IMG/VR virus record: IMGVR_UViG_3300047548_001271
Location: 93,443-157,442 of that record
Direction: 5' to 3' (one strand)
DNA from: a virus
DNA length: 64,000 nt
Position numbers and translations under genes: made by a program. Position 1 is the first letter of the stretch, and each line of letters begins with the position of its first letter. Shown in pieces: positions 12,880-62,642 of the stretch. Below the pieces are notes generated by a model that saw only the letters and a list, made by a program, of their open reading frames with translations, was not told where the DNA came from and ran no database searches.

Positions 12880-14823
12880 TTTTTATTTCTTTCATTCTCA
12901 AACTTTTTTAAAACATCAGCAAAGTCTTTAGAACTGACTTCGATATTATTTTTTCTTAGATAGTTTTCAACCATTGTGACATATCTATCACCGAACCCAA
13001 TATCGGGATTTACCCAATCATACTCACAAGCAAGGTGCATCATACCAGCTAATAGTTTTTTTTCTGTAGGTGTAAGACATATACATGTACTTTTTTTACA
13101 ATAATGGCAAAATGATCCGTCCATAATAAACCTTTTATTTTAAAAGTTGGATAGTATCTGCTGTTATAACTTTTATATTTTGAAGAGTTAAGATTTTTTT
13201 GTCTAGTTCATTTAAAAATTTAACCCTGGTCGAAACAAATCGCCTAATCCATGCCACTTCATAATATAAGTGCCAATCTAATTTAGTAATTTCTGTTTTC
13301 AAATTCATTTTTAATTCCATTGAATGTTCTTATAAACATCTGAGGTATTGTTCTTTTTATATAGAAAAGCGTATCGTCTTTTTTATTACCTTGAATATAT
13401 TTTAATAATGCATAGTATGTTTCATTTGATCCATATTTTGTCATTTTATCATACATTATTAAGTCTAAGCTAAGAATTATTTGAGATATATTCATTGTTA
13501 ATTTGGTTTTCTAAACTAGTTTCTATAAATATAGAGCTTTCTGTTTGAGCCATAGACGTAATTATTAATCTATCAATATTCAAAGGTGATAAATCAATAT
13601 CATCTCCTAGCGACCTTATATAGGTCTCTGCCTCTTCTAATGAATAAGCGACAATCAACACTTCTGTTTCTGAATTTTTAAACTTAAAAACTTTTGGTTT
13701 TACATGATCATAATATAACATAGCTCAGCCCTTTGTTGATGCTCGACTTTCACATTCATCATATAATGTATTATATACCTCAAACTGATACTCATCAATT
13801 GATGAGTAAGATTCAAGTAGATCAATGAATATTTTTTTTGCTGATTCGTTATTAATTTTTTTACAAATTTTTACCTTGTTATTAAAGGCGTTTTCAATTG
13901 AAAAATTTTTTATACCAAATATCTGAAAAATAACTTCGAGTTTACATTGAATAAAATACTTTTCAAGCTCTGAGTGTTTTTCAGTTTGTTCAAATATAAC
14001 ACCTCTATACATTCTAACTATTTCTTCCGCATTCATCATTAATCTCACAATAAAAACTTAAGATGAAACTTCCATGTCAATATCTCTATCAAAATGATAG
14101 AGACAAGCGAATTTAAATTGACCCGTATATTGATTTTTGTAATTAAGAAATTTTACTTGGTGTGCTCCTTCCCAGACACCACCAGATCTATCTACTATAG
14201 ATTTTAATTTCTCTACATCACTTTTAGAATATACAGTTTGTAGTCTTAGTGTAAATCTAGCTGACTTGTCCGAATCTCGATTATAACAAGCGAGAACATA
14301 TGTGTTGCCACAATCTTCGCACTCACTCAAATGTTTTTCTAAATCTAGTGGAAGTTCTGAATTTATAAATTTGAAAATTTCGCTTTTTGGTCTATCACAT
14401 TCTTGCATAAAACACCCTCAAATCTAGTTCAATTTTTCGTGATTGGTTGTTTTGGTATGGTTTCCACTGGCATCATTTCTACAAATATATGAATAAGCAA
14501 TGCAGTCGCTTCTCTTGTAGGTATATTAGTAAATAAATCATCTTTAAAAGATTCTATTTTTATATTTGAACTTGTCTCATGTGAAATTTGAGAATTAAAA
14601 CATTTCCTATGAAGCCTTTTTCTCAAATTTGTATTAATTTTTTCTAATCTTGATTTTTTGATAATTTGACACCAAATCATTTCACCTATATCAAAATAAT
14701 TTAATTGTTTAACAGAATTTACCATTAAATCTACGCCAAGCCTCAAATTATAAGAATTGCCGTAAGAAGCAAATAATGCTTTTTGTGCTTCATATTTTAA
14801 TTCATCGACAAAAAAGTGTAGTA

Positions 14824-17505: not shown

Positions 17506-18789
17506 TTAAGAAACTTCTTCCATATCTTGATAGTCGTCAGCTTCCTTAGCAATCCCCTCCAGAACCTTAAAGAGGAACGATTTGTTCTTGAAAGTCTTCC
17601 ATTTACTAGAGTCTACGCGAACGCACACTCCTTCTCGCGGATGACGAGGATCAACCAAGTCAGGTCCGTCAGTAAATCCATCCACCACTTCAAGAAGTTT
17701 ATCGTAGTCTCCATCGAAAGTCAAGCGAGAAATCTCAGGAACGTATTTGACGCCCCAAGAATCACATTTCGACTTCACTTGATCCCATGTGAGATCGATA
17801 GCCTCGCCATTAGGAAGAACGTAAGCAATACGATAGACGTAGATATCAAAGTCAAGAACAGGGAAACCAGTTTCATCGCATTTGCGAGCATCACAGTTAT
17901 AGGTATAAGTAATCTTATCGCCATACAACTTCTTAACTTCCTTGTCCTTAGTTTTAGATGTATCTTGAACTGGCATGATAGGTTTACCATACTCAAAACC
18001 AACAACCTCAAAGAAAATTTCCATATGGTCTTCGAGATATGGATATAGCTTTTCAGCCACCTTTTCGCGGAAAGACTCAGAGTAATACCCAGTGTCATCT
18101 CCACGAAGTGTTACGTTACGAGTCCCATTGTAGAGACGCATAACTTTACGATCTCTCTTGATTTTGAAGAATTCGAGAACTCTGTCATACCATTTTTCCG
18201 GTTTCTCTTCGTAGTTCTTTGCAACTCGCTGAGAAGTTCCGTGCATTTTTAGAGTGATGACAAGGTTATCACCAGCTTTGATCGAAGCTAGAGAGTGACG
18301 TAGCTGCTCAGTATCCTTATGTTTCGGAAACCAAATGCTCTCACGACAAACCTTAGTAGAGTTATTGCTTCTAGCTCTAAGAGTCCGAGGAGAAAAGTAT
18401 TTCTTGCAGATTTCCTTGCCGTTAAATGTGGCGATTTTATCTCCTTCTTTCAGAGAAGAAGTATCACCAGCGTAATTCAGGTGCGACAGCGGACACCAAA
18501 ATCCATTAGATTTTAGGCCTCGAACTTTTTGTGCTCGAACCTTACGGTTTTCATCGAACATTCCTCCGGCATTAGTTCCGTCCGGATTCTTTCGACGAAC
18601 GAGATCATTTGCAGCGGCAAATTCTTCGCTAAGCTGTAGATCGCAAGGGAAATACAGACCTAGTTCACCATCAGCAGTCTTGTTCGAAACAACAATAGTT
18701 TCCCCAAGAACCCAACCAACAGCAAGCGAATGAACTTCTGGATCTGGGTGTGGTGTTACTTTAATTCGTGTTACAATGGCTTCGTGCAT
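17506..18789 (-). CDS. RNA ligase (DRB0094/Rnl2-like) with N-terminal OB domain
   Basis: Motif I TLKMHGTS, motif III IFFEVVG, FDIYVY, motif IV REGVCVR, motif V FKNKS. Confidence 0.8.
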   Translation of the reverse strand: MHEAIVTRIKVTPHPDPEVHSLAVGWVLGETIVVSNKTADGELGLYFPCDLQLSEEFAAANDLVRRKNPDGTNAGGMFDENRKVRAQKVRGLKSNGFWCPLSHLNYAGDTSSLKEGDKIATFNGKEICKKYFSPRTLRARSNNSTKVCRESIWFPKHKDTEQLRHSLASIKAGDNLVITLKMHGTSQRVAKNYEEKPEKWYDRVLEFFKIKRDRKVMRLYNGTRNVTLRGDDTGYYSESFREKVAEKLYPYLEDHMEIFFEVVGFEYGKPIMPVQDTSKTKDKEVKKLYGDKITYTYNCDARKCDETGFPVLDFDIYVYRIAYVLPNGEAIDLTWDQVKSKCDSWGVKYVPEISRLTFDGDYDKLLEVVDGFTDGPDLVDPRHPREGVCVRVDSSKWKTFKNKSFLFKVLEGIAKEADDYQDMEEVS

Positions 18790-20092: not shown

Positions 20093-21349
20093 TTACTTTT
20101 CTGGAATTTGCAGCAGAAGATCCATATTTCCATTCCCCATGAAGTAGGTCGGGAAACTACCATTCCACTTTTCAACCTTCTTAGTTTCTAGTTCTAACCT
20201 CTTCAAGCCAAGATACAATTCAGTGTCTTTCTTTGCTTGTTCAGCTTCATACGTCTTCGCGTCTGCAACGAGTTTGATTGCGTCAGCCTCTCCTTGTTTC
20301 TCCGTAAGGATAGCTTTAGCCTTTGCCTCCGCTTCAAGCTGAATACGCTTGTTTTCTTCAAGCTGGGCTGTTGTTTTCGCAATCGCAATGAAAGATTCTT
20401 GTTCGGCGTTAAACACCTCAGCCATCTTTTCTTGAATTTTTGGGTTACGATATACAAATCCACCAGTAATTCCTAGATTTGTAATTGTAATACCTCGTAG
20501 AGCAAAAAAGTCTGTAATATTTTTTGTTACTTCTCGAATAATTGGAGTGGCTTTAGATTTTAGTTCATCCATTGGCTTATCAGTAACGGCGAGACTAAAT
20601 TCACTCTGTAGTTTTGCTCTAATTTCACTATCAAGAACTGATGCAAGGCTTCCGTTTTTATATGTTGACAAGAATAGTGCGGCGTCTTCTCGTGATTTGA
20701 TATATGCAGTACAAGTCCAACCAGTAGAAAATTCAACTTGATCGCTAGTCATTACCCAAATAGCTTGATCAAACTGCGACGTACCAGACTTTGTATCCGC
20801 TGTCCATTCTCGCGTGACCGGTTCAGTTGCAACTCGGATCAATTTAGCAGCATCAATCCATTCTCCATTCCACCCTTTAAACCAAGCGAATGTATTATAT
20901 CCTCTGTCAACCCACATTTGAGGAATTTTTACTTGCTGAGAAAGAACCACCTTTTTTTCGTACTCTTCTGCAGAAATTGCGGCTTGATTTTGAACATCTG
21001 CATTGTTGATAATGAACGCCACCTCATTTGGTTCAACCATCTCATATTTGTTCGGCTCGAAAGGTTTTCGACACCCGCTTATGAAGAACAAGACAACTAA
21101 AGGAAAAAGGCTCTTCAGATACTTCAGCTTAGAACGATACGCAGTAATCCACATCAAAACAACTCCTACAACAGATAGTGACCAACAAGCAGACCTCACT
21201 TGAGAATCAACCATTAACTCGTTGGTTATTGGCTTATTAAACTGATTAATATGTGCTTCCCTTTTTAGTTGAAGATTAGCACTATCATAAATCGACAACC
21301 CCGCAAAAACAAGACTCGTCACGACAACCAGCAAAATAAATTTGTACAT
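20093..21349 (-). CDS. SPFH/band-7 membrane protein
   Basis: N-terminal TM helices, RGITITNLG, Ala/Glu-rich coiled coil, C-terminal EKWNGSFPT. Confidence 0.75.
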   Translation of the reverse strand: MYKFILLVVVTSLVFAGLSIYDSANLQLKREAHINQFNKPITNELMVDSQVRSACWSLSVVGVVLMWITAYRSKLKYLKSLFPLVVLFFISGCRKPFEPNKYEMVEPNEVAFIINNADVQNQAAISAEEYEKKVVLSQQVKIPQMWVDRGYNTFAWFKGWNGEWIDAAKLIRVATEPVTREWTADTKSGTSQFDQAIWVMTSDQVEFSTGWTCTAYIKSREDAALFLSTYKNGSLASVLDSEIRAKLQSEFSLAVTDKPMDELKSKATPIIREVTKNITDFFALRGITITNLGITGGFVYRNPKIQEKMAEVFNAEQESFIAIAKTTAQLEENKRIQLEAEAKAKAILTEKQGEADAIKLVADAKTYEAEQAKKDTELYLGLKRLELETKKVEKWNGSFPTYFMGNGNMDLLLQIPEK

Positions 21350-21471
21350 AAACTTTTCCTTTTTAAATAATTTGAATGAATGTACAGTCTTTGCATCCCC
21401 AAGAAGTATTATCATCCCATGTATTATTGCTTCCGCATTTTGGACACTTCATTTATAAGATCCTTTTTATA

Positions 21472-21873: not shown

Positions 21874-22318
21874 GGCACACCTCATTTGACATCGTTAAAG
21901 CCCAGATCATTAATCCGCGTTTATGGTTGCCGCCACTAACACGAATATAATGACTTGATATTTCATTATGTGGATATTCATCTGCATCGCAGAATATTTT
22001 TTTACTTGGAACCCACATCATTCCTGAGTCAGTAATATTCAAGAATATACCACTAGTATGCTTGTATACTAGCGTGTCTTTATCTTGAGTCCATCCAATA
22101 CCTGGTTTTAGTTTATTTTTCTTCATTCAATTCACCAGTCATCCATTTTCTCAAATCAACAATTAAAAACCAATCTTGGTTAATTTTTTTAGCAATTTCT
22201 AAAGCTTGTTCTTCTGTTTCAAAGCATCCTCTCCAATCTTCTGTTCCTGCGGAGTAACACTCGTTATCTGCAGCGATTAGCAGAAATGGTTTATTCATTA
22301 TAAATTTGCTTTCTCAAG

Positions 22319-22576
22319 TGGACCTGGCCGGATTCGAACCGGCGTCTCAAACTAACTATATAACAATTCATTCACACGTTTAGTTGCTGAGCAACGTCCT
22401 TAGTTTATACGATAACAATCCACTCTTGGTTGATAGGGTTTGTGGAGACCCCACGCTTATGCAGCGAGAGAAACGATGTTTGCTCTTATTTTTTGATTGG
22501 CTTTTTACGAGGCCAGCCGATCAACCTCGACGTGCATCATTATACCGCTTCATCTGATCGATACCATTACAGGCCC
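22319..22576 (-). ncRNA. ssrA: tmRNA (compact, about 258 nt), tag ANIVSLAA
   Basis: Acceptor GGGCCTG/CAGGTCC-A with G3:U70; GACGCCGGTTCGAATCCGG T arm; ATAAGA-GCA resume context; tag reading frame 22483..22457 ends LAA-TAA. Confidence 0.92.
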
Positions 22577-22578
22577 AA

Positions 22579-22665
22579 TGCGAGAAGGTGGGATTCGAAC
22601 CCACATGTTTAGCCAGTGGCACTTGATTTACAGTCAAGCTCCTTCACCAATTTGGATACTCTCGC
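22579..22665 (-). tRNA. tRNA-Tyr(GUA)
   Basis: CTTGA-CTGTAAA-TCAAG anticodon arm, long variable arm, T arm. Confidence 0.9.
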
Positions 22666-22918
22666 TAATAAAATCTTCACAAACTATGTACATACAATTA
22701 GTTCCTACTTCAATAGAATGCTTTGGAAAATACGGATCTCCATATTTTTTAGATATTTCATTATTTTTGATAAGACCGGGTGTTTTGCCGTTTTCATCAA
22801 AATAAAGTGGAAATGATTCTCTACCAAAACAATCTCTTTGTTTCCAGAAACATTTTTCATTTTTACATTCGAATGTTGATGGGCATTGATATGTTGTTTG
22901 CATGTTAAATCATTCTAT

Positions 22919-22991
22919 TCTAGGTGGCAAGACTCGAACTTGCAACTTCTTGGCCCCAAACCAAGCACTCTACCAATTGAGCTACACCCAG
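22919..22991 (-). tRNA. tRNA-Pro(UGG)
   Basis: CTTGG-TTTGGGG-CCAAG anticodon arm; canonical D and T arms. Confidence 0.9.
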
Positions 22992-23193
22992 TTATATATA
23001 TAGTTTATCACATAAGTGGCGAATGTCAAGTCATTTTTGATCGATTTGTTTAGTTATACAGTTAACAATAAAATTAAACACTCTTGATTGATCTTTTATT
23101 GGATATTCAAATGTATCGCAAAAAAATATCCGATGCTCACGTTTTAAATCAAAGCGGCGGCATATATTTTCATATTCAATAAAATTTATTATG

Positions 23194-23655
23194 TTAGATA
23201 TCATTTGATGTAAACTTTTCATATTCACTTTCCATCATTAAATAACAAAAAACATTTCTTCCGTGAGTTAAATATGTATATATCTTTGTTTTTGGATTAA
23301 ACTCCAACCAAATATCATTCCACGGCCCACGAAATGTTAAAGCCCATGTGTCTGAATGAGACACCACTCGATGTATATTATTTCTCGGAGTGAATTTTGG
23401 CAAGAACGACGCTTTAAAATTTTTATTTTCTCCGGTCAATTTTTCTTCTGTGACTTCTCCGCTCAAAAACCAAGTAATAGCATTAAATGCGTGTGAGTGG
23501 TAATTTTCGCGAGAGCCATTCTTAAAATGAAGAAGTCCAATTGAAAAGAGCTTCTTCCATTCTACTAGAAAATATCCAGTAACACCAGACTCAGCACCGC
23601 CGTCAAATTTTTTATAAAAGAATCGTGGAAGCCATTTGTGAAGAAATACATTCAT
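23194..23655 (-). CDS. cupin-like phage protein
   Basis: HSHAF...G..E...HRV...WALTFRGP cupin metal motif. Confidence 0.6.
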   Translation of the reverse strand: MNVFLHKWLPRFFYKKFDGGAESGVTGYFLVEWKKLFSIGLLHFKNGSRENYHSHAFNAITWFLSGEVTEEKLTGENKNFKASFLPKFTPRNNIHRVVSHSDTWALTFRGPWNDIWLEFNPKTKIYTYLTHGRNVFCYLMMESEYEKFTSNDI

Positions 23656-23936
23656 CTACGACCATCCTCTTGCAGTAAAAAGTGTGCTCTATATACTGGC
23701 TTTGTAAAACCTAAATATATTTCCCAGTCAGAATATCCATGCTCGACAAATCTATCTTTTTCTCTTATGTATTCTACTACACGTTTCTCTTTTAGTTGTT
23801 CAGAATAAACAACTCTAAATTTTTCAACGTCTGTATGGATTGTTTTTATTTCGTATCTATCAAGTTCTTTACGAACGTCATTTCTTATTTGATCTATACA
23901 ATGTTTATTATTTGGGTGCGTTATTATGTATTGCAT
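23652..23936 (-). CDS. hypothetical protein preceded by an ACAGCA leader motif
   Basis: ORF track; ATG follows the leader hairpin directly. Confidence 0.5.
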   Translation of the reverse strand: MQYIITHPNNKHCIDQIRNDVRKELDRYEIKTIHTDVEKFRVVYSEQLKEKRVVEYIREKDRFVEHGYSDWEIYLGFTKPVYRAHFLLQEDGRR

Positions 23937-23941
23937 AAAAA

Positions 23942-23995
23942 GGTCACTTTCTTAGTATCGAAACTAAATAATCCATATTAATGCTGTGAGTGACC
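23942..23995 (-). promoter_or_regulatory. ACAGCA leader motif with T-loop-like hairpin
   Basis: GGTCAC-TCACAGCA-linker-TTAGT(TTCGAT)ACTAA-GAAA-GTGACC, just before an ATG. Confidence 0.65.
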
Positions 23996-24194
23996 ACATT
24001 ACTCGCCGTGACGAGTAAAGATCTCTTTCCACACATGGTGGACGAGGCTATCGCTTTAACATCTCCATTATGAGAGCCCAATCAAGAAGCATACTAAAAA
24101 TATGTATAAATCCATAAATATACAAATTATAGTAAGGTTGTTTTCTTAAAATAAAACTAGAAAAAACATTTATTAGTGTAAACATTATTAGTTC

Positions 24195-24590
24195 CTATTT
24201 AAACAACCCAGAAAAAAGACCTTTAACAACCTCTTTAGATTTTTCTCCAACCCATTCACCAGCCACGCGAGATTTATTTATATCAGTTTTTTCAACTATT
24301 ATATCATCTTTTGTAAATTTAATTCCATCTGGACCAGCAGATCTAATCGTCGCCTTGTCAAAATTGTCAGATTTTTCAAGCTTGTGGTCAACCACATTTC
24401 CCCATGGGTCCATTGCTGGTTTATATTCACTATCAGATTTTAGTAGTTTTGCGACCTCGTTTTCTAGCACTTTCTTTTCTTGTATGCTACTAAAACTAAA
24501 ACCCCCAATAAATGCAATGATAAGAAAACCAGCCAATACAAAAGTAAAAAACTCGTCTATTTGAAGAACACCATCTATAATCTTTTTCAT
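24195..24590 (-). CDS. membrane protein with GspG-like (T2SS pseudopilin C-terminal) motif
   Basis: TM helix plus DPWGN...IRSAGPDGIKFTKDDI. Confidence 0.7.
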   Translation of the reverse strand: MKKIIDGVLQIDEFFTFVLAGFLIIAFIGGFSFSSIQEKKVLENEVAKLLKSDSEYKPAMDPWGNVVDHKLEKSDNFDKATIRSAGPDGIKFTKDDIIVEKTDINKSRVAGEWVGEKSKEVVKGLFSGLFK

Positions 24591-24609
24591 AGAAACCTTT
24601 CAAAAAAAA

Positions 24610-24718
24610 TCCGGCAGCTAGGATTCGAACCTAGATCACGATCTTAGAAGTGATAATTTTAATGCTGTTAGAGATAAAATATCTCGTTTTACGTGTTTTA
24701 CCGTTAAACTACCGCCGA
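24610..24718 (-). ncRNA. tRNA-bodied RNA with ACAGCA module in the anticodon arm (copy 1)
   Basis: Acceptor TCGGCGG/CTGCCGG, D arm GTTT-AACGGTA-AAAC, T arm CTAGG-TTCGAAT-CCTAG; arm insert TAAAAC-GAGAT(ATTTT)ATCTC-TAACAGCA. Confidence 0.8.
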
Positions 24719-24719
24719 T

Positions 24720-24823
24720 ATGTGTTGCCGGGACTCGAACCCGGATGCTAAAATTTTATGCTGTTAGAGATCTTTTCTGTATCTCGTTTTCATATTTTTG
24801 CTTTACCATTAAGCTACAACACA
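24720..24823 (-). ncRNA. tRNA-bodied RNA with ACAGCA module in the anticodon arm (copy 2)
   Basis: Acceptor TGTGTTG/CAACACA, D arm GCTT/AAGC, stem AAAAT/ATTTT enclosing GAAAAC-GAGAT(ACAGAAAAG)ATCTC-TAACAGCA, T arm CCGGG-TTCGAGT-CCCGG. Confidence 0.82.
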
Positions 24824-24828
24824 TTTTT

Positions 24829-26205
24829 TTAAACAATATATCGATCTTTCATGATCGTCTCTAACATTACTCCTTCTGGTGACAGATCACCAAAAAGTGA
24901 AGGAATAATACTTGGAGAATAACCACTAACCAAAGCAACTCCTTTATCAGAAATTTTAGCTTGGAAGTTTTTATCTCTGCCGTTAACATTCCAGAAAACA
25001 ACTTGAGGAAGTTTATATCCATGAGACTCGAATTGAGATGTCATAGTTTGATAATTTGTCCCACGACAAGCAGAATTAAATTCCATGTCAGAGATGATTA
25101 GAATTTTACTTGGCATGTCATGGTTTGTCAAGTTGTTTTGTACGGCTTTGTTGAGAATCAACTCAAATACTTTTTGTAAGTCAGTGCTCATTCCCCATTC
25201 AGCTTGAGAAAGCTGTCTAAGTCGTTGACCAAAGTCACCAGAAAGCTGTTGAAGTTTTGGATTACTAGAGAAGGTAATAAAACAATCCTTAAAGATTCCA
25301 GTATTACGCTGCGAACAGTACATTGCTAATGAAATTGATGCATGAATTGGTCTAAATTGAGGATCTGAATAACAACCCATGCTACCACTAACATCAGAAA
25401 CAACCAATACATTTTCATCTGTATAATAATTCGGTAGTGCGTTCCACTGAGCAACAGCAACTACTGGATTTTTATTATACGATAGCAAAACATCATGAGG
25501 GAACAAAACACTAGCATTTATTTTTGCTTCACCAGAAGCTACTTTCGTCATGTATTGACCAAATCTTTTTGGATCTCGCTTATTAAAAGACCGAGAATAA
25601 ATAGACATAGCTTTTGATGGAACAGCAGAATATTTAATTTCTGACCATTGACGAGCACTCATCTGTTGTTCAACGACTTTAGTATTTTTTACAATTCTTT
25701 GCTTGAGACTAATAATCGAAACATCTAGTTTGGCAGCGACAAGGCCAAGCAAATTTCCTTCATTGTGTCTTGGTAGCCACTTACAAAGAAGATTATTGTC
25801 AATGTTGTCTGCGATAAACTGTGCTGTGTCATCGCATACTGGCATTACCATCCTTTTAGTAGTTGAGGTGCCCCATAGATCGTCCCATCGACCAATATCT
25901 GGAACCCTCTTCATAACTCTGATCTTATCTGCTTTAGGAAGAGATCTGTAAATCAACCGGAAAAGTCTTCGTTCTCCAGCTCCTCCACGAGGATCTCTCA
26001 ACCACAGCAAAATTCTGAGTGCGAGATCTGGATTACTGATGTAGGCTTTTTCCCACAAAAGCAAAACTTCCTTGTCTGGACGGCTTCTCATAGAAGCAAT
26101 AGTAGAAAACAAATCAACTAAAGGAGAACCAGTAGTTGAATGGGATTCTGCCCCATTAGCAGTCAGAGAATCATTCGTTTGAAGAGCATTAATCAATTTA
26201 GACAT
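24829..26205 (-). CDS. DUF2828-family protein (TROVE/Ro60-like helical domain + vWA)
   Basis: TANGA..STT, RDPRGGAGERRLFR, GRWDDL, KWLPR, MIDAS DVSGSM, WGMSTDL, ISDMEFN, VFWNV, VSGYS. Confidence 0.85.
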   Translation of the reverse strand: MSKLINALQTNDSLTANGAESHSTTGSPLVDLFSTIASMRSRPDKEVLLLWEKAYISNPDLALRILLWLRDPRGGAGERRLFRLIYRSLPKADKIRVMKRVPDIGRWDDLWGTSTTKRMVMPVCDDTAQFIADNIDNNLLCKWLPRHNEGNLLGLVAAKLDVSIISLKQRIVKNTKVVEQQMSARQWSEIKYSAVPSKAMSIYSRSFNKRDPKRFGQYMTKVASGEAKINASVLFPHDVLLSYNKNPVVAVAQWNALPNYYTDENVLVVSDVSGSMGCYSDPQFRPIHASISLAMYCSQRNTGIFKDCFITFSSNPKLQQLSGDFGQRLRQLSQAEWGMSTDLQKVFELILNKAVQNNLTNHDMPSKILIISDMEFNSACRGTNYQTMTSQFESHGYKLPQVVFWNVNGRDKNFQAKISDKGVALVSGYSPSIIPSLFGDLSPEGVMLETIMKDRYIV

Positions 26206-26223
26206 GGTTTAAATCCTTAAAAA

Positions 26224-26275
26224 TGTCGCATTTCATTCAGGAAAAGTGAATTTTTTTTATGTGCTGTTAGCGACA
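26224..26275 (-). promoter_or_regulatory. ACAGCA leader motif with anticodon-loop-like hairpin (DUF2828 5'UTR)
   Basis: TGTCGC-TAACAGCA-A-rich-ATTCA(CTTTTCC)TGAAT-GAAAT-GCGACA, just upstream of the AAGGA RBS. Confidence 0.8.
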
Positions 26276-26284
26276 ATATGACTA

Positions 26285-27283
26285 CTATTTCATCACCAAA
26301 ACTCGCTGTTTTGGTATTACATTCCTATTAACGCTTGTACTTTGAATAAACACAATCCATTCGCCATGATCTTCCGGTGTAATCTTTACTTCTGAATTCG
26401 GAAGATTTAGCAATGTTCTTGCATTATCACCAGTATAAACTTTACCATTCTTTTTGTTCTGTACGGCAATTTCTTTTTGCGGTTGAACATGTTCATTTTT
26501 TACTAGTTCATAAAAAGAATTTCCAAGAACATATTTAGTCCCAAGTTTCTTTTCAACGAGCGGTTTTATTTGAACCGCTTTTACATCCTCGTTGATGATC
26601 ACATCATAGCTTCCGTCTTTTACTATGTCAAGCACTTTCGAAACATTTTTTGAAGTCACTTCGGAAAGATTAGAGAAAATGCTTCTGGTAGACTTAACTC
26701 CGGATTTTCTTGCTGTGAAGAAATTATCCATCGTCTGCTTGAATTTATTACCGACCTCAACAACGCCTTCTTTTGTTGCATTCCAGATTTCAATATTTCC
26801 TTCTGGAATACCAAGATTTTTTAAGGCCATGACGCCCGCTTGATTAGGAACAAAAGCGGCAACTGTAAAATTATCTGGAAGAGTTTTTAATTGATTGATT
26901 AATTCTATCGGTTTTGTTTTTGAGTGGTTTTCTTCTCCATCCGTTATTAGATAAATAATGAAAGAGTGATCGCCGTATTTTTGAGGAAGCTCTTTCGCAT
27001 CATTAATAGCTAGACAAAAAGCATCTCTTAAGGCCGTATTTCCATAAGCTGTGATTTCTTCAAGTTTTACTGGTCTTGCCACATCAACATCACTAATTAC
27101 ACATTTAACATCAGAAGCAAAAGTATAGAAACTAATTCTAGTCTCTTGTTCTTGTTCAATGCTAGACTGCCTCAGATTATCTATTTGTAAATTAAATATA
27201 TCAGAAGCTGTTTTGATGATTGGAGCCATTGAGCTTGATACGTCCAAGCAAACAAATACATGGTTTTTATAAGTATTTTTCAT
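26285..27283 (-). CDS. von Willebrand factor A domain protein
   Basis: MIDAS LDVSSSM, GNTALRDA, LITDGEEN; C-terminal FYELVK...QSTSVNR domain. Confidence 0.85.
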   Translation of the reverse strand: MKNTYKNHVFVCLDVSSSMAPIIKTASDIFNLQIDNLRQSSIEQEQETRISFYTFASDVKCVISDVDVARPVKLEEITAYGNTALRDAFCLAINDAKELPQKYGDHSFIIYLITDGEENHSKTKPIELINQLKTLPDNFTVAAFVPNQAGVMALKNLGIPEGNIEIWNATKEGVVEVGNKFKQTMDNFFTARKSGVKSTRSIFSNLSEVTSKNVSKVLDIVKDGSYDVIINEDVKAVQIKPLVEKKLGTKYVLGNSFYELVKNEHVQPQKEIAVQNKKNGKVYTGDNARTLLNLPNSEVKITPEDHGEWIVFIQSTSVNRNVIPKQRVLVMK

Positions 27284-27304
27284 AAGAGATCCTTAAAAGT
27301 TACA

Positions 27305-27358
27305 TGTCGCGTTTTAATCTTTTACCAAAAAAAAGTTATTTTTATGCTGTTAGCGACA
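27305..27358 (-). promoter_or_regulatory. ACAGCA leader motif with anticodon-loop-like hairpin (vWA 5'UTR)
   Basis: TGTCGC-TAACAGCA-TAAAAATAA-CTTTT(TTTTGGT)AAAAG-ATTAAAAC-GCGACA, upstream of the AAGGA RBS. Confidence 0.8.
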
Positions 27359-27359
27359 A

Positions 27360-27442
27360 TGGACCGAGTAGGAATCGAACCTACCAACACAAGAATTTAA
27401 AATCCGGATTAAAATTCTTATAGACACCAGCTCTGTCGGCCC
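27360..27442 (-). ncRNA. tRNA-like RNA with Ala identity (G3:U70) and extended anticodon-less arm
   Basis: GGGCCGA/TCGGTCC-A acceptor, T arm GTAGG-TTCGATT-CCTAC, reduced D region, 10-bp stem ATAAGAATTT/AAATTCTTGT. Confidence 0.7.
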
Positions 27443-27449
27443 TTTTTAA

Positions 27450-27523
27450 TGGACAGAATAGGAATTGAACCCACCACAGATGCATTGCAAATGCTTCTCG
27501 CCACCCTTGGAACATGTCCGCCC
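27450..27523 (-). tRNA. tRNA-Ala(UGC), atypical
   Basis: G3:U70 and A73; loop TTTGCAA; one mismatch in the anticodon stem; C8. Confidence 0.75.
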
Positions 27524-27530
27524 GTATTAT

Positions 27531-27558
27531 ATTGTATAGTCTATTTGGCGATTGTCAA
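27531..27558 (-). promoter_or_regulatory. promoter of the tRNA-Ala / vWA / DUF2828 cluster
   Basis: TTGACA-N16-TACAAT ending 7 nt before the tRNA-Ala 5' end. Confidence 0.75.
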
Positions 27559-28165
27559 GTGTTTTTTCTTTATTTTCTTCTTCTACTGAATAAACAAGCT
27601 TTATTCCGCCACGTCTTTCATTATAATGTCCGTACTCATCATGATATCCTGCTATTCTCGCAGTGAATTCGTAATTAATTATATTATTTTTCTTTATGAA
27701 ATCATCAACAGCTTGTTGTAAATCGTTGAATGTTTTATATTTAAACACTTCAATATCATTATAATATTCCCAAAACAACCACTTAATAAGAGCCCGTTTA
27801 GTTATTTTTTGATCATAAGCCCAATACATTTGGCGAACTTTCATTTTTCATCGCTCCAATCAAATTTTGTTTGTCATATTTAGAATAAATAAAATGCTTT
27901 ATCGATTTAAACTACCTCACATTTAATCTTGTTTTAATTGCTGTTTGTACATAATTTAAATCAATCCGCACTGCGTAGTCAAAAAGCATTTTATCACAAA
28001 CTTCTTTACTGACTTGTTTTCGCAAACTATCGAAATTTTTTGCGCATATAAGAGAGCGAATATAATGTATTGTTAATTGAGTGTCATATATATGTTTATC
28101 ACAGACATATAAATATAGGCTTAATGGAATGTCTTGTGCTGTTTGTATTATTTCAGACATAATTA

Positions 28166-62529: not shown

Positions 62530-62634
62530 CACGCAGGAGTTAATTACGCTCCTTTTCGAAGGCCCACCCGGTTTAGTGCCGTTTTAACCGTTTATCGAAT
62601 TACGGTAGTGTTGCTGTTAGCTTGGCCTCGCGTG
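62530..62634 (-). ncRNA. structured RNA containing the TAACAGCA...TAAAAC module
   Basis: CACGC/GCGTG and AGGCC/GGCCT stems; TAACAGCA-ACCGT(AATTCGATAA)ACGGT-TAAAAC. Confidence 0.6.
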
Positions 62635-62642
62635 TTTTTCAT

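What the first reader, a model, noticed from the sequence alone, without database searches (positions are those of the whole stretch)
24610..24823. Tandem tRNA-bodied RNAs whose anticodon arm is replaced by a probable protein-binding module
Seen: both RNAs have 7-bp acceptor stems and canonical D and T arms, so they should be processed like tRNA. Their tRNA bodies differ, yet both carry AAAAC-GAGAT-(variable loop)-ATCTC-TAACAGCAT. Copy 1 also retains a CTTCTAA heptamer resembling an Arg(UCU) loop. The same insert on different bodies argues against simple pseudogenes, and no group I core or bulge-helix-bulge is visible. Inference: the topology is a circular permutation of YrlA, with RNA ends at the acceptor stem instead of the Ro-binding stem.
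Basis: partly seen in the sequence, partly recalled or inferred. Interest (0 to 1): 0.85.

Follow-up and report, generated by a model that had tools for sequence, protein, structure and literature searches.

The report
tRNA-shaped RNAs carrying Ro-like docking arm
Two tRNA-shaped genes just after a phage gene for a Ro60-shaped ring protein each carry a conserved extra arm (a short hairpin followed by UAACAGCAU), and because this arm travels with that protein gene in many phages, they are most likely its partner RNAs rather than broken or intron-bearing tRNAs.

Summary
On the minus strand, 24823-24720 (A) and 24718-24610 (B) are complete tRNA bodies (Rfam tRNA 52 and 40 bits). Each holds the same 33/30-nt arm: [U/G]AAAAC, a 5-6 bp hairpin, then UAACAGCAU.

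A starts 5 nt after the stop codon of a 458-aa DUF2828/DUF7788 protein. Its predicted structure matches Ro60 over its full length. The same "handle" also lies in the 5' leaders of this gene, of the upstream vWA gene and of a 94-aa ORF.

In 31 loci from other phages that encode this protein, 32 handles lie on the gene strand and none on the opposite strand. Their helix covaries. Relatives mostly use the handle to clamp the ends of re-ordered, YrlA-like tRNA mimics or bare anticodon-arm mimics. Here and in two other phages the helix is capped and sits inside a normally ordered tRNA.

Best reading (about 0.6): A and B are Y-RNA-like partners of the Ro60-like protein, and the leader copies give feedback control. 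They are not YrlA members: the Rfam model and the GNCGAA motif both fail. Splicing cannot be excluded, because no RNA data exist.

This scan has met the same family on other DNA several times. I found no published description.

The parts
24720..24823 (-). RNA A: a tRNA body in normal order whose anticodon loop is replaced by the handle arm. The 3' CCA is not encoded and the discriminator is U.
   Evidence: Rfam tRNA 52.4 bits. Sequence read. Fold. ARAGORN with introns allowed.
24758..24791 (-). Handle arm of A: GAAAAC, helix GAGAU/AUCUC with a 9-nt loop, then UAACAGCAU.
24610..24718 (-). RNA B: a tRNA body in normal order with the handle arm inserted in the 5' strand of the anticodon stem. Its 3' half resembles phage tRNA-Arg. 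The 3' CCA is not encoded and a run of U follows.
   Evidence: Rfam tRNA 39.9 bits. Sequence. Weak similarity to annotated phage tRNA-Arg.
24662..24691 (-). Handle arm of B: UAAAAC, helix GAGAUA/UAUCUC with a 3-nt loop, then UAACAGCAU.
24639..24654 (-). Anticodon-arm remnant of B: AUC-A-CUUCUAA-GAU-CG. It is Arg UCU-like, but the loop has 8 nt.
   Evidence: It lies at the same junction as in the open-form relatives.
24829..26205 (-). Gene of the Ro60-fold protein (458 aa; DUF2828 + DUF7788; vWA domain with an intact MIDAS site). This is the candidate partner of the handle.
   Evidence: Pfam and PHROG matches. AlphaFold model with pLDDT 84. The Foldseek top 13 hits are all Ro60/TROVE over the full length, E 1e-9 to 1e-4. 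DxSGS is invariant in the alignment.
26223..26276 (-). Handle in the 5' leader of the Ro60-like gene: UGUCGC-UAACAGCAC, then a hairpin with loop CUUUUCC, then GAAAU-GCGACA. It ends about 18 nt before the start codon.
   Evidence: It is the top hit in the window of model R1, which was built only from other phages (26.8 bits, E 5e-4).
26285..27283 (-). vWA-domain protein gene (332 aa, phrog_26613). It carries the same handle in its leader but is not conserved beside the Ro60-like gene in other phages.
27304..27359 (-). Handle in the 5' leader of the vWA gene: UGUCGC-UAACAGCAU, then a hairpin, then UAAAAC-GCGACA. It ends about 20 nt before the start codon.
   Evidence: It is the second-best hit of model R1 (25.0 bits, E 1e-3).
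27361..27519 (-). Two degenerate tRNA-like elements at the head of the operon. One has an Ala UGC-type loop (27450-27519). The other has a long AU-rich hairpin in place of the anticodon arm (27361-27442). Neither carries a handle.
   Evidence: Rfam tRNA 17.4 bits and tRNA-Sec 20.6 bits, both below threshold.
27531..27558 (-). Promoter-like site TTGACA-16-TACAAT upstream of the whole set. This is a consensus match only.
23941..23996 (-). Third leader handle: GGUCAC-UCACAGCAU, then a hairpin with a T-loop-like UUCGAUA loop, then AAGAAA-GUGACC. It ends 4 nt before the start codon of a 94-aa ORF (23652-23936).
   Evidence: Model R1 did not report it at E <= 10.

Best explanation
A and B are stable, tRNA-shaped non-coding RNAs. 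They act as the Y-RNA-like partners of the Ro60-fold protein encoded immediately upstream.

Inferred pathway:
1. A and B are transcribed with the vWA and Ro60-like genes, because A starts 5 nt after the stop codon.
2. They are cut out by the host's tRNA-processing enzymes (RNase P, 3' trimming, CCA addition), because the acceptor, D and T arms are canonical.
3. The extra arm is the docking site for the ring protein. The arm is a 5-6 bp helix flanked by single-stranded [U/G]AAAAC and UAACAGCAU.
4. The tRNA body is the end that engages a tRNA-recognising partner. In B this includes an Arg-type anticodon hairpin. The partner could be a nuclease, a repair or modification enzyme, or a host anticodon nuclease that is decoyed.
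5. The same handle lies 4-20 nt upstream of the start codons of the vWA gene, the Ro60-like gene and a 94-aa ORF. Free protein could therefore repress its own operon, with A and B titrating it.

What is shown: the anatomy, the Ro60 fold, the conserved and covarying handle, and its linkage to this gene family.

What is inferred: expression, processing, binding, feedback control and the downstream partner.
For: Anatomy: two full tRNA bodies with an identical arm.

Protein: the neighbouring gene matches DUF2828/DUF7788 and phrog_850 'RNA-binding protein'. Its model (pLDDT 84) matches Ro60 from phage phiLo, Deinococcus, Xenopus and human over about 500 aligned columns as the top 13 PDB hits.

Family linkage:
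- In 31 non-redundant phage loci that hold a homologue, the core NNAC[AC]GCA occurs 126 times on the gene strand and 62 times on the other strand.
- With an adjoining helix of 6 bp or more whose partner strand follows AAA, the counts are 32 against 0.
- Swapping the strand for a random 10-mer gives a mean of 5.1.
- The helix covaries: 95.8% of cells are paired, 7 of 8 pairs show double changes, and 57 cells show double changes against 18 +/- 3.4 in shuffles (0 of 500). Slid controls give 13-41% paired.
- A covariance model built only from other phages picks the window's two leader handles as its two best hits in 64 kb.

Search starting from the RNA motif: the four contigs with the clearest handles (L145, L071, L137, L150) all encode the protein at E <= 1e-94 on the same strand. 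One of five large control phage genomes does.

Topology: relatives use the handle to close cargo in the order T arm, capped acceptor, D arm, with the same junction as B (D arm-A-CG-UAAAxx-helix ... helix-CUACAGCAU-linker-anticodon hairpin-CG).

Against a decoding role:
- B would have an 8-nt loop even if the arm were removed.
- The arm-bearing tRNA in L145 has no canonical anticodon loop.
- The arm-bearing Thr UGU-like RNA of L018 sits in the same locus as an ordinary tRNA-Thr UGU.
- Handles in mRNA leaders carry bare anticodon-arm mimics: 11 of 24 against 0.06 expected. The anticodon hairpin therefore belongs to the module itself.

Precedent: Ro60 orthologues are encoded next to tRNA-like Y RNAs in bacteria and phages, and M. 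smegmatis YrlA is cut by RNase P and receives CCA (PMC4201824). Phage phiLo Ro60 binds two Y-like RNAs encoded beside it (PMC12135203).
Against: - There is no expression, processing or binding evidence of any kind. No RNA run holds this DNA.
- The linkage is by co-occurrence, so the handle could bind something else.
- The instances used for the covariation count were chosen partly because they can pair.
- Removing the insert from A can give a 7-nt loop AUGAAAA (Phe GAA). Removing it from B restores a perfect 5-bp stem CGAUC/GAUCG.
- Neither Phe GAA nor Arg UCU is among the 13 ordinary tRNAs of this 64-kb window. A decoding role after arm removal is therefore not excluded.
- The handle differs from the known Ro60-binding site (GNCGAA / bulged helix).
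- The protein is not a Pfam TROVE member.
Confidence: 0.6

Rival explanations
1. The arms are a new kind of short, protein-dependent tRNA intron. An endonuclease recognises the handle, the arm is cut out and the halves are ligated, perhaps by the phage's own RNA ligase. This would give working tRNA-Phe(GAA) and tRNA-Arg(UCU). In the re-ordered relatives it would give circular intermediates, as with permuted tRNA genes of some algae.
For: - Removing the insert restores a perfect anticodon stem in B and a 7-nt loop with U33 in A.
- Phe GAA and Arg UCU are missing from the window's ordinary tRNA set.
- An ATP-dependent RNA ligase of the DRB0094 type is encoded at 17506-18789.
- In L016 and L009, joining the flanks of the handle would give a perfect Thr UGU anticodon arm.
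Against: - B would have an 8-nt anticodon loop, and L145 has no anticodon loop at all.
- A has discriminator U, which by general knowledge of tRNA identity is unusual for tRNA-Phe.
- L018 already has an ordinary tRNA-Thr UGU.
- The same handle sits in mRNA leaders, where excision has no obvious product.
- Rfam finds no intron family, and inserts of about 32-40 nt are far too short for group I. No bulge-helix-bulge is visible, and the insertion sites differ (loop in A, 28/29 in B, 26/27 in L018).
- No endonuclease was identified.
Confidence: 0.1
2. The handle is the target of some other factor, such as a host RNA-binding protein, a nuclease or the ribosome. It is primarily a cis-regulatory leader element of DUF2828 genes. 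A and B would then be sponges or decoys for that factor rather than partners of the Ro60-like protein.
For: - Most homologous loci have a handle 10-25 nt upstream of the gene's start codon.
- Handles can also lie several kb from the gene.
- The vWA gene and the 94-aa ORF carry handles too.
Against: - Autogenous control, where a protein binds a copy of its own RNA target in its leader, explains the same facts more simply.
- The partner gene has the fold of a protein family whose known role is binding such RNAs.
- Contigs found through the handle encode the protein in 4 of 4 cases, against 1 of 5 controls.
Confidence: 0.15
3. A and B keep the arm and still work as tRNAs. They would be aminoacylated and used in translation, or used as amino-acid donors, with the arm serving as protection against host anticodon nucleases or as a regulatory tag.
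For: - The acceptor, D and T arms and the tertiary-pair nucleotides are complete.
- B keeps a UCU loop and an A73 discriminator, and its 3' half resembles tRNA-Arg.
Against: - By general knowledge of ribosome-tRNA contacts, a 30-40-nt arm on the anticodon stem should clash with the decoding site, all the more with a bound 50-kDa protein.
- A has no anticodon loop at all unless the arm is removed.
- B's loop has 8 nt.
Confidence: 0.07
4. A and B are decaying tRNA pseudogenes disrupted by a small repeated insertion and have no function.
For: ARAGORN in its default mode does not call them. B has wobble pairs in its acceptor stem.
Against: - Identical arms sit in two different bodies, and the stems are otherwise intact.
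- The same arm is conserved, with a covarying helix, across phages whose protein is only 33-44% identical.
- Strains 96-97% identical from other freshwater samples keep both genes, with 4 substitutions and one 1-nt indel in 231 nt.
Confidence: 0.03

Closest known systems
YrlA-type Y RNAs with Ro60/Rsr in bacteria and phages (Rfam RF02553; Chen et al. 2014, PMC4201824; phage phiLo Ro60 with Yrl1/Yrl2, PMC12135203)
   Same: - Small RNAs are encoded beside, and on the same strand as, a ring-shaped Ro60-fold protein with a vWA domain.
- One end is a protein-binding helix with a conserved single-stranded motif.
- The other end mimics tRNA (T arm, D arm, acceptor).
- Several RNAs occur per locus.
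- Processing by tRNA enzymes has precedent.
   Different: - The protein belongs to DUF2828/DUF7788, not Pfam TROVE.
- The motif is UAACAGCA(U/A) plus AAAAY, not GNCGAA.
- The Rfam YrlA model does not match.
- In this window the order is that of a normal tRNA, with the binding helix capped and placed in the anticodon arm. This is the circular permutation of YrlA.
- The handle also occurs in mRNA leaders.
Class I RNAs of dictyostelid amoebae (Kjellin et al. 2021, PMC7919456)
   Same: The open-form handles of the phage family share the Class I outline. This applies to the phage family as a whole, not to A and B.
- A short covarying stem joins the 5' and 3' ends.
- An approximately 11-nt single-stranded motif lies directly 3' of the 5' strand. 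The positions reported as near-invariant in the paper (U3, C6, C9, A10, A11) fit nnUAACAGCAA.
- The conserved ends are AAG... and ...CUGU, compared with UAG... and ...CUG(U) in the phage consensus.
- The middle part is variable.
   Different: - Class I RNAs are eukaryotic, 42-65 nt long and reported as unique to Dictyostelia. Their known binder is an RRM protein.
- A and B have the stem capped and embedded in a tRNA, so their ends are not at the stem.
- The resemblance was compared only with the paper's description, not tested with a model.
Intron-containing and permuted tRNA genes (group I introns in bacterial and phage tRNAs; bulge-helix-bulge introns and permuted tRNAs of archaea and red algae)
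   Same: An insert lies in or next to the anticodon arm of an otherwise complete tRNA gene. Relatives have tRNA parts in permuted order.
   Different: - There is no group I core, and the insert is only about 32-40 nt.
- No bulge-helix-bulge is visible.
- Insertion sites are variable and non-canonical.
- The same element sits in mRNA leaders.
- The exons are often non-canonical.
Autogenous translational operators that mimic the protein's RNA target (for example the thrS leader mimicking the tRNA-Thr anticodon arm, and ribosomal-protein operators; general knowledge)
   Same: A copy of the presumed RNA target, with an anticodon-arm-like hairpin, lies a few nucleotides upstream of the ribosome-binding site of the gene for the presumed binder.
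   Different: Regulation here is wholly inferred. Three different genes carry the operator-like copy.

Membership tests
YrlA (Rfam RF02553) | Match to the family covariance model at or above its gathering score (69 bits) | tested here: not met
   The only match scores 17.8 bits (E 0.46). It spans the T arm of A to the D arm of B (24695-24745), which is the dimeric-tRNA artefact that Chen et al. warn about. There is no match at the gathering threshold anywhere in the window.
YrlA (Rfam RF02553) | GNCGAAN0-1G motif near the 5' end, the presumed Ro60 contact | tested here: not met
   The motif is absent from A, B and the leader handles. The conserved single-stranded motif is UAACAGCA(U/A) instead.
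YrlA (Rfam RF02553) | tRNA-like domain with T and D arms and tertiary-pair nucleotides | tested here: met
   Rfam tRNA scores 52.4 and 39.9 bits. U8, A14, G18G19 and the UUCGA T loop are present.
YrlA (Rfam RF02553) | Order: protein-binding stem formed by the two ends, then T arm, loop-closed acceptor stem, D arm | tested here: not met
   A and B have normal tRNA order with open acceptor stems and a capped binding helix. The YrlA order with the same handle is found in relatives L001, L009, L015, L016, L071, L089, L137 and L150.
YrlA (Rfam RF02553) | Encoded within about 4 kb of a Ro60 orthologue and on the same strand | tested here: inconclusive
   A begins 5 nt after the stop codon of a Ro60-fold protein on the same strand. 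That protein matches DUF2828/DUF7788, not Pfam TROVE, at E <= 0.01.
YrlA (Rfam RF02553) | Bound by Ro60 in cells | not testable with these tools
   This needs pull-down or gel-shift experiments.
tRNA (Rfam RF00005) | Cloverleaf body above the gathering score | tested here: met
   52.4 and 39.9 bits against a gathering score of 29.
tRNA (Rfam RF00005) | 5-bp anticodon stem closing a 7-nt loop with U33 | tested here: not met
   A's loop is 39 nt. B has the arm in the stem and an 8-nt loop ACUUCUAA.
tRNA (Rfam RF00005) | Aminoacylation and use in decoding | not testable with these tools
   No RNA data are available.
ACAGCA-handle RNAs of DUF2828 loci (uncatalogued; defined) | Helix of 5-10 bp with NNAC(A/C)GCA(A/U) directly 3' of one strand and an A-rich AAAAY directly 5' of the other | tested here: met
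   A: GAAAAC-GAGAU...AUCUC-UAACAGCAU. B: UAAAAC-GAGAUA...UAUCUC-UAACAGCAU.
ACAGCA-handle RNAs of DUF2828 loci (uncatalogued; defined) | Same strand as, and near, a DUF2828/DUF7788 gene | tested here: met
   A lies 5 nt and B 111 nt downstream of the gene, on the same strand.
ACAGCA-handle RNAs of DUF2828 loci (uncatalogued; defined) | Match to covariance model R1, which is the open form built from other phages | tested here: inconclusive
   R1 finds the window's two main leader handles (E 5e-4 and 1e-3). It cannot score A and B because their strands are in permuted order. A model of the closed form was not built because the four examples aligned out of register.
Group I or bulge-helix-bulge tRNA introns | Group I catalytic core, or a 3-nt bulge / 4-bp helix / 3-nt bulge at the exon-intron junctions | tested here: not met
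   No intron family appears in Rfam scans at E <= 10. The inserts are 32-37 nt. No bulge-helix-bulge was seen on inspection, and the insertion sites differ between copies.
Ro60 / TROVE proteins (for the neighbouring gene) | HEAT-repeat ring plus a vWA domain with a MIDAS site | tested here: met
   The Foldseek top 13 hits are all Ro60 (9kop, 9l5y, 2nvo, 1yvr, 2i91, 9nep and others) over about 500 columns with TM 0.35-0.59. D271-x-S273-G-S275, T341 and D373 are invariant in 24 homologues.
Ro60 / TROVE proteins (for the neighbouring gene) | Sequence match to Pfam TROVE or to solved Ro60 chains | tested here: not met
   Pfam lists only DUF7788 and DUF2828. phmmer against PDB sequences gives nothing at E <= 1. 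NCBIfam gives nothing.
Dictyostelid Class I RNAs | Ends joined by a short stem, an 11-nt motif 3' of the 5' strand, and a length of about 60 nt | tested here: not met
   In A and B the stem is a capped hairpin inside a 104-109-nt tRNA body. The open-form leader handles of the family do fit the published description (PMC7919456), but no model comparison was run.

The most novel reading that the evidence does not exclude
The ACAGCA handle is the recognition element of a phage-encoded RNA cutting-and-joining system. Together with the Ro60-like ring and an RNA ligase, it would remove the arm from arm-bearing tRNAs and circularise or re-open the permuted ones. The phage's tRNA-Arg and tRNA-Phe would then become functional only once phage proteins are made. 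This would be a bacterial-virus counterpart of archaeal bulge-helix-bulge tRNA splicing.
Probability: 0.08. Interest if true: 0.95.

Novelty: new variant of a known kind. Interest (0 to 1): 0.7.

Why it matters
Ro60 and its Y RNAs are a long-studied but still poorly understood RNA-surveillance particle. The tRNA-like end of bacterial Y RNAs has no known partner.

This locus belongs to a second, apparently undescribed branch. The ring protein is from a different family (DUF2828/DUF7788) and the RNA handle is different (helix plus UAACAGCA). The cargo is a tRNA, a re-ordered tRNA or a bare anticodon arm.

The window shows the handle in both circular permutations and in three mRNA leaders within 3.6 kb. 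That makes it a compact system for testing three things:
- what the handle binds;
- whether the protein regulates itself;
- what the displayed anticodon arms are for, for example as decoys for host anticodon nucleases or as tethers to tRNA enzymes.

It also explains a class of odd "tRNAs with inserts" that gene finders skip or mis-call. It may connect to the unexplained Class I RNAs of social amoebae.

Tried and rejected
- **RNA evidence:** no RNA holder was listed for window 22000-28000. The four runs laid were DNA contigs only. They show that 96-97% identical strains keep A and B, and they say nothing on splicing.
- **Exact-motif scan of viral contigs:** the full motif AAAACGAGAT..ATCTCTAACAGCAT has no match.
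- **TAACAGCAT + GGTTCRA scan:** the 118 stretches returned gave nine candidates after filtering. By inspection none looks like a real handle, and most appear to lie in protein-coding sequence.
- **Other insert-bearing tRNAs from the first motif scan (L052, L092, L109, L039):** these lack a clear handle, and their contigs lack the protein. I set them aside as unrelated or undecidable. L060 has the protein 54 kb away and an unclear arm.
- **Covariance model of the closed form:** abandoned, because MAFFT put the four examples out of register by one column.
- **vWA gene as a conserved second partner:** rejected. No homologue was found in any fetched locus.
- **RNA ligase as a regular neighbour:** only L001 has one within 3 kb.
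- **The protein by sequence:** no PDB match and no NCBIfam match.
- **Whole genome:** none is held for this window, so the full tRNA complement is unknown.
- **Literature:** searches for DUF2828, for the motif strings and for phage YrlA gave no description of this RNA family.
- **Complex prediction:** not used, because it cannot take RNA.
Full report
**What is there.** The window is AT-rich (34% GC), phage-like DNA from a freshwater metagenome. Nearly all genes are on the minus strand, with 13 ordinary tRNAs and a tmRNA. The two elements of the finding lie on the minus strand: A at 24823-24720 and B at 24718-24610. Both are complete tRNA bodies. Each has a 7-bp acceptor stem, U8, a D arm with G18G19 and a T arm with UUCGA. 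Rfam's tRNA model scores them at 52.4 and 39.9 bits against a gathering score of 29, with large inserts in the anticodon region. ARAGORN sees them only when introns are allowed.

Both carry the same arm: [U/G]AAAAC, a helix (GAGAU/AUCUC in A, GAGAUA/UAUCUC in B) with an unrelated loop, then UAACAGCAU. In A the arm sits on top of a 5-bp anticodon stem and replaces the loop. In B it enters the 5' strand of the anticodon stem between C27G28 and AUC. It leaves an anticodon-type hairpin AUC-A-CUUCUAA-GAU closed by C42G43. The one refinement is that B keeps an Arg(UCU)-like hairpin, with an 8-nt loop.

**The neighbourhood changes the picture.** A begins 5 nt after the stop codon of a 458-aa ORF (24829-26205). 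This ORF matches Pfam DUF2828 and DUF7788 and PHROG 850, 'RNA-binding protein'. It has no sequence match to solved structures. An AlphaFold model built on 24 homologues has pLDDT 84. Ro60 proteins are its top 13 PDB matches over the full length: Thermus phage phiLo, Deinococcus Rsr, and Xenopus and human Ro60, at E 1e-9 to 1e-4. The MIDAS residues of its vWA domain are invariant. So the gene next to the two RNAs encodes a Ro60-shaped ring protein from a family other than Pfam TROVE.

**More copies in the window.** The same helix-plus-UAACAGCA element occurs three more times on the same strand within 3.6 kb, each time in a 5' leader:
- before the vWA gene (27304-27359);
- before the Ro60-like gene (26223-26276);
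- before a 94-aa ORF (23941-23996).

In these copies the two helix strands are far apart and enclose a small hairpin: strand, UAACAGCAU, hairpin, AAAAC, strand. In A and B the same two strands are joined by a loop, and what lies "outside" them is the tRNA. These are the two circular permutations of one module. Earlier first-stage notes on this genome pointed me to the leader copies, and I checked them in the sequence.

**The module is a conserved family linked to this protein.** I fetched 34 viral contigs encoding homologues of the protein at 33-44% identity. In the 31 non-redundant loci:
- The core NNAC[AC]GCA occurs 126 times on the gene strand and 62 times on the other.
- Thirty-two gene-strand cores have an adjoining helix of 6 bp or more whose partner strand follows AAA, against 0 on the opposite strand.
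- Replacing the strand with a random 10-mer gives a mean of 5.1.

Most loci have a copy 10-25 nt upstream of the protein's start codon. I aligned 24 short members from other phages. The helix is 95.8% paired, with compensatory changes at 7 of 8 pairs and 57 double-change cells against 18 +/- 3.4 in shuffles (0 of 500). Slid registers are only 13-41% paired. These instances were chosen partly for their ability to pair, so the variety of pair types is the informative figure. A covariance model built from these 24 contains nothing from the window. Its two best hits in the 64 kb are the leaders of the Ro60-like gene (E 5e-4) and the vWA gene (E 1e-3).

I also ran the search the other way, scanning viral contigs for ACAGCAT followed by a T loop. 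The four contigs with the clearest handles all encode the protein at E <= 1e-94 on the same strand, 2-8 kb away. Only one of five large control phage genomes that matched the pattern through ordinary tRNAs does.

**What the handle carries elsewhere.** In L001, L009, L015, L016, L071, L089, L137 and L150 the cargo between the two strands is a re-ordered tRNA. The order is anticodon hairpin, variable region, T arm, acceptor 3' strand, small loop (for example GCAA), acceptor 5' strand, D arm. This is the order of YrlA, the tRNA-like Y RNA that accompanies Ro60 in bacteria and mycobacteriophages (PMC4201824).

The junction is the same as in B. After the D arm come A-CG-UAAAxx-strand. After the other strand come CUACAGCAU, a linker, three pairs of an anticodon stem, a CUNNNAA loop, and CG.

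Short members, mostly in leaders, carry only an anticodon-arm mimic. Eleven of 24 have a stem of 4 bp or more closing a CU-NNN-RA loop, against 0.06 expected from shuffled cargo.

The capped form inside a normally ordered tRNA is rarer in my sample. Besides A and B, I found two:
- L018:5299-5413, a Thr UGU-like body with the arm at 26/27. It lies 0.9 kb downstream of the protein gene.
- L145 c2003-2120, which has no canonical anticodon loop. It lies 2.3 kb upstream of the gene on the same strand.

**Spliced tRNAs or stable RNAs?** No RNA data exist for this DNA, so this rests on indirect evidence.

For splicing:
- Removing the arm restores a perfect stem in B and can give a 7-nt GAA loop in A.
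- Arg UCU and Phe GAA are not among the window's ordinary tRNAs.
- The phage has an ATP-dependent RNA ligase at 17506-18789.

Against splicing:
- B's loop would have 8 nt.
- L145 has no anticodon loop.
- L018 already has an ordinary tRNA-Thr UGU in the same array.
- The insertion site differs among copies.
- No group I or bulge-helix-bulge features are present.
- The very same element sits in mRNA leaders with bare anticodon-arm mimics, where excision yields nothing useful.

B's 3' half resembles annotated phage tRNA-Arg, though weakly (E 0.6-8). This fits a tRNA-Arg that was recruited as cargo and has since drifted by one extra loop nucleotide.

**Most likely mechanism (confidence about 0.6).** A and B are made from the 3' end of the operon transcript. 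A promoter-like site lies at 27558-27531 (a consensus match only). They are released by tRNA-processing enzymes and accumulate as ~105-110-nt RNAs. Their arm docks the Ro60-like ring, as the conserved helix of Y RNAs docks Ro60. The tRNA body or anticodon hairpin is the effector end. The leader copies would let free protein shut down its own operon, with A and B acting as titrating partners. What the tRNA end engages is unknown. Tethering to tRNA-handling enzymes, as in the Ro60-Y RNA-PNPase machine, and decoying of host anticodon nucleases are both open.

**Comparison with known families.**
- *Function:* the closest known system is Ro60 with YrlA-type Y RNAs, including the phage phiLo Ro60 that binds two Y-like RNAs encoded beside it (PMC12135203).
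- *Membership:* this fails. Rfam YrlA gives only 17.8 bits, at the A/B junction (a dimeric-tRNA artefact). The GNCGAA motif is absent, the order of parts is inverted, and the protein is not a TROVE member by sequence.
- *Class I RNAs:* the open-form handles also fit the published outline of dictyostelid Class I RNAs. That outline is a short covarying terminal stem, an 11-nt motif with U3, C6, C9, A10 and A11, and ends AAG... and ...CUGU (PMC7919456). I checked it only against the paper's text.
- *Prior description:* Rfam 15 has no family for the handle. Literature searches for DUF2828 and for the motif found nothing relevant.

**Earlier notes of this scan.** The scan has met this family repeatedly on other DNA, including capped arms inside tRNAs. 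Those agents reached the same reading. These are unchecked AI notes on other loci and I do not count them as evidence.

This window adds both permutations of the handle, three leader copies and the protein gene, all in one small operon. It also adds a case (A) where the arm fully replaces the anticodon loop.

**Verdict.** The finding is real. It is not a pseudogene pair, and most probably not an intron pair. It is a new variant of the Ro60/Y-RNA theme.

Noticed in passing
L001:3001-4365, L027:3001-4422, L028:3001-4422: The Ro60-like genes of these three viral contigs have no open frame of 300 aa or more under table 11 (six in-frame stops in L001), although tblastn aligns them end to end. These phages may read a stop codon as an amino acid.
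   Followed up: no
window 62540-62640 (-): There is another CUAACAGCAA element followed by a hairpin with a T-loop-like UUCGAUA loop and UAAAAC, upstream of a Shine-Dalgarno-like AAAGGAG. The closing helix is less clear than in the other copies. It may be a sixth handle.
   Followed up: partly
window 13108-13174 (-): This is the third-best hit of the handle model R1 (18.5 bits, E 0.06): UAUAACAGCAG with a weak closing helix, in a stretch without an ORF of 90 aa or more. It may be a further diverged handle or a chance match.
   Followed up: no
window 17506-18789 (-): A 427-aa ATP-dependent RNA ligase (Pfam RNA_ligase; weak match to the Deinococcus DRB0094-type model) lies 6 kb downstream of the Ro60-like operon. 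L001 also has a ligase homologue 1.2 kb downstream of its Ro60-like gene.
   Followed up: partly
window 22316-22576 (-): A compact 260-nt tmRNA with tag ANIVSLAA lies 2 nt from tRNA-Tyr. tmRNA genes also occur near the Ro60-like gene in L005, L006, L017 and L018.
   Followed up: no
window 27361-27519 (-): Two sub-threshold tRNA-like elements open the operon. One has an Ala UGC-type loop but a poor D arm. The other has a long AU-rich hairpin around UCCGGA in place of the anticodon arm. Neither carries the handle, and the second ends 1 nt before the first leader handle.
   Followed up: partly
window 20093-21415 (-): A 440-aa protein with an SPFH/Band-7 domain lies between the tRNA/tmRNA cluster and the RNA ligase.
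   Followed up: no
L021:536-627 (the same in L022 and L023): A 92-nt tRNA with a UAU anticodon loop and a long extra arm, called by ARAGORN only as an 'intron' tRNA. It is an unusual type II-like tRNA-Ile(UAU) candidate near the Ro60-like gene.
   Followed up: no
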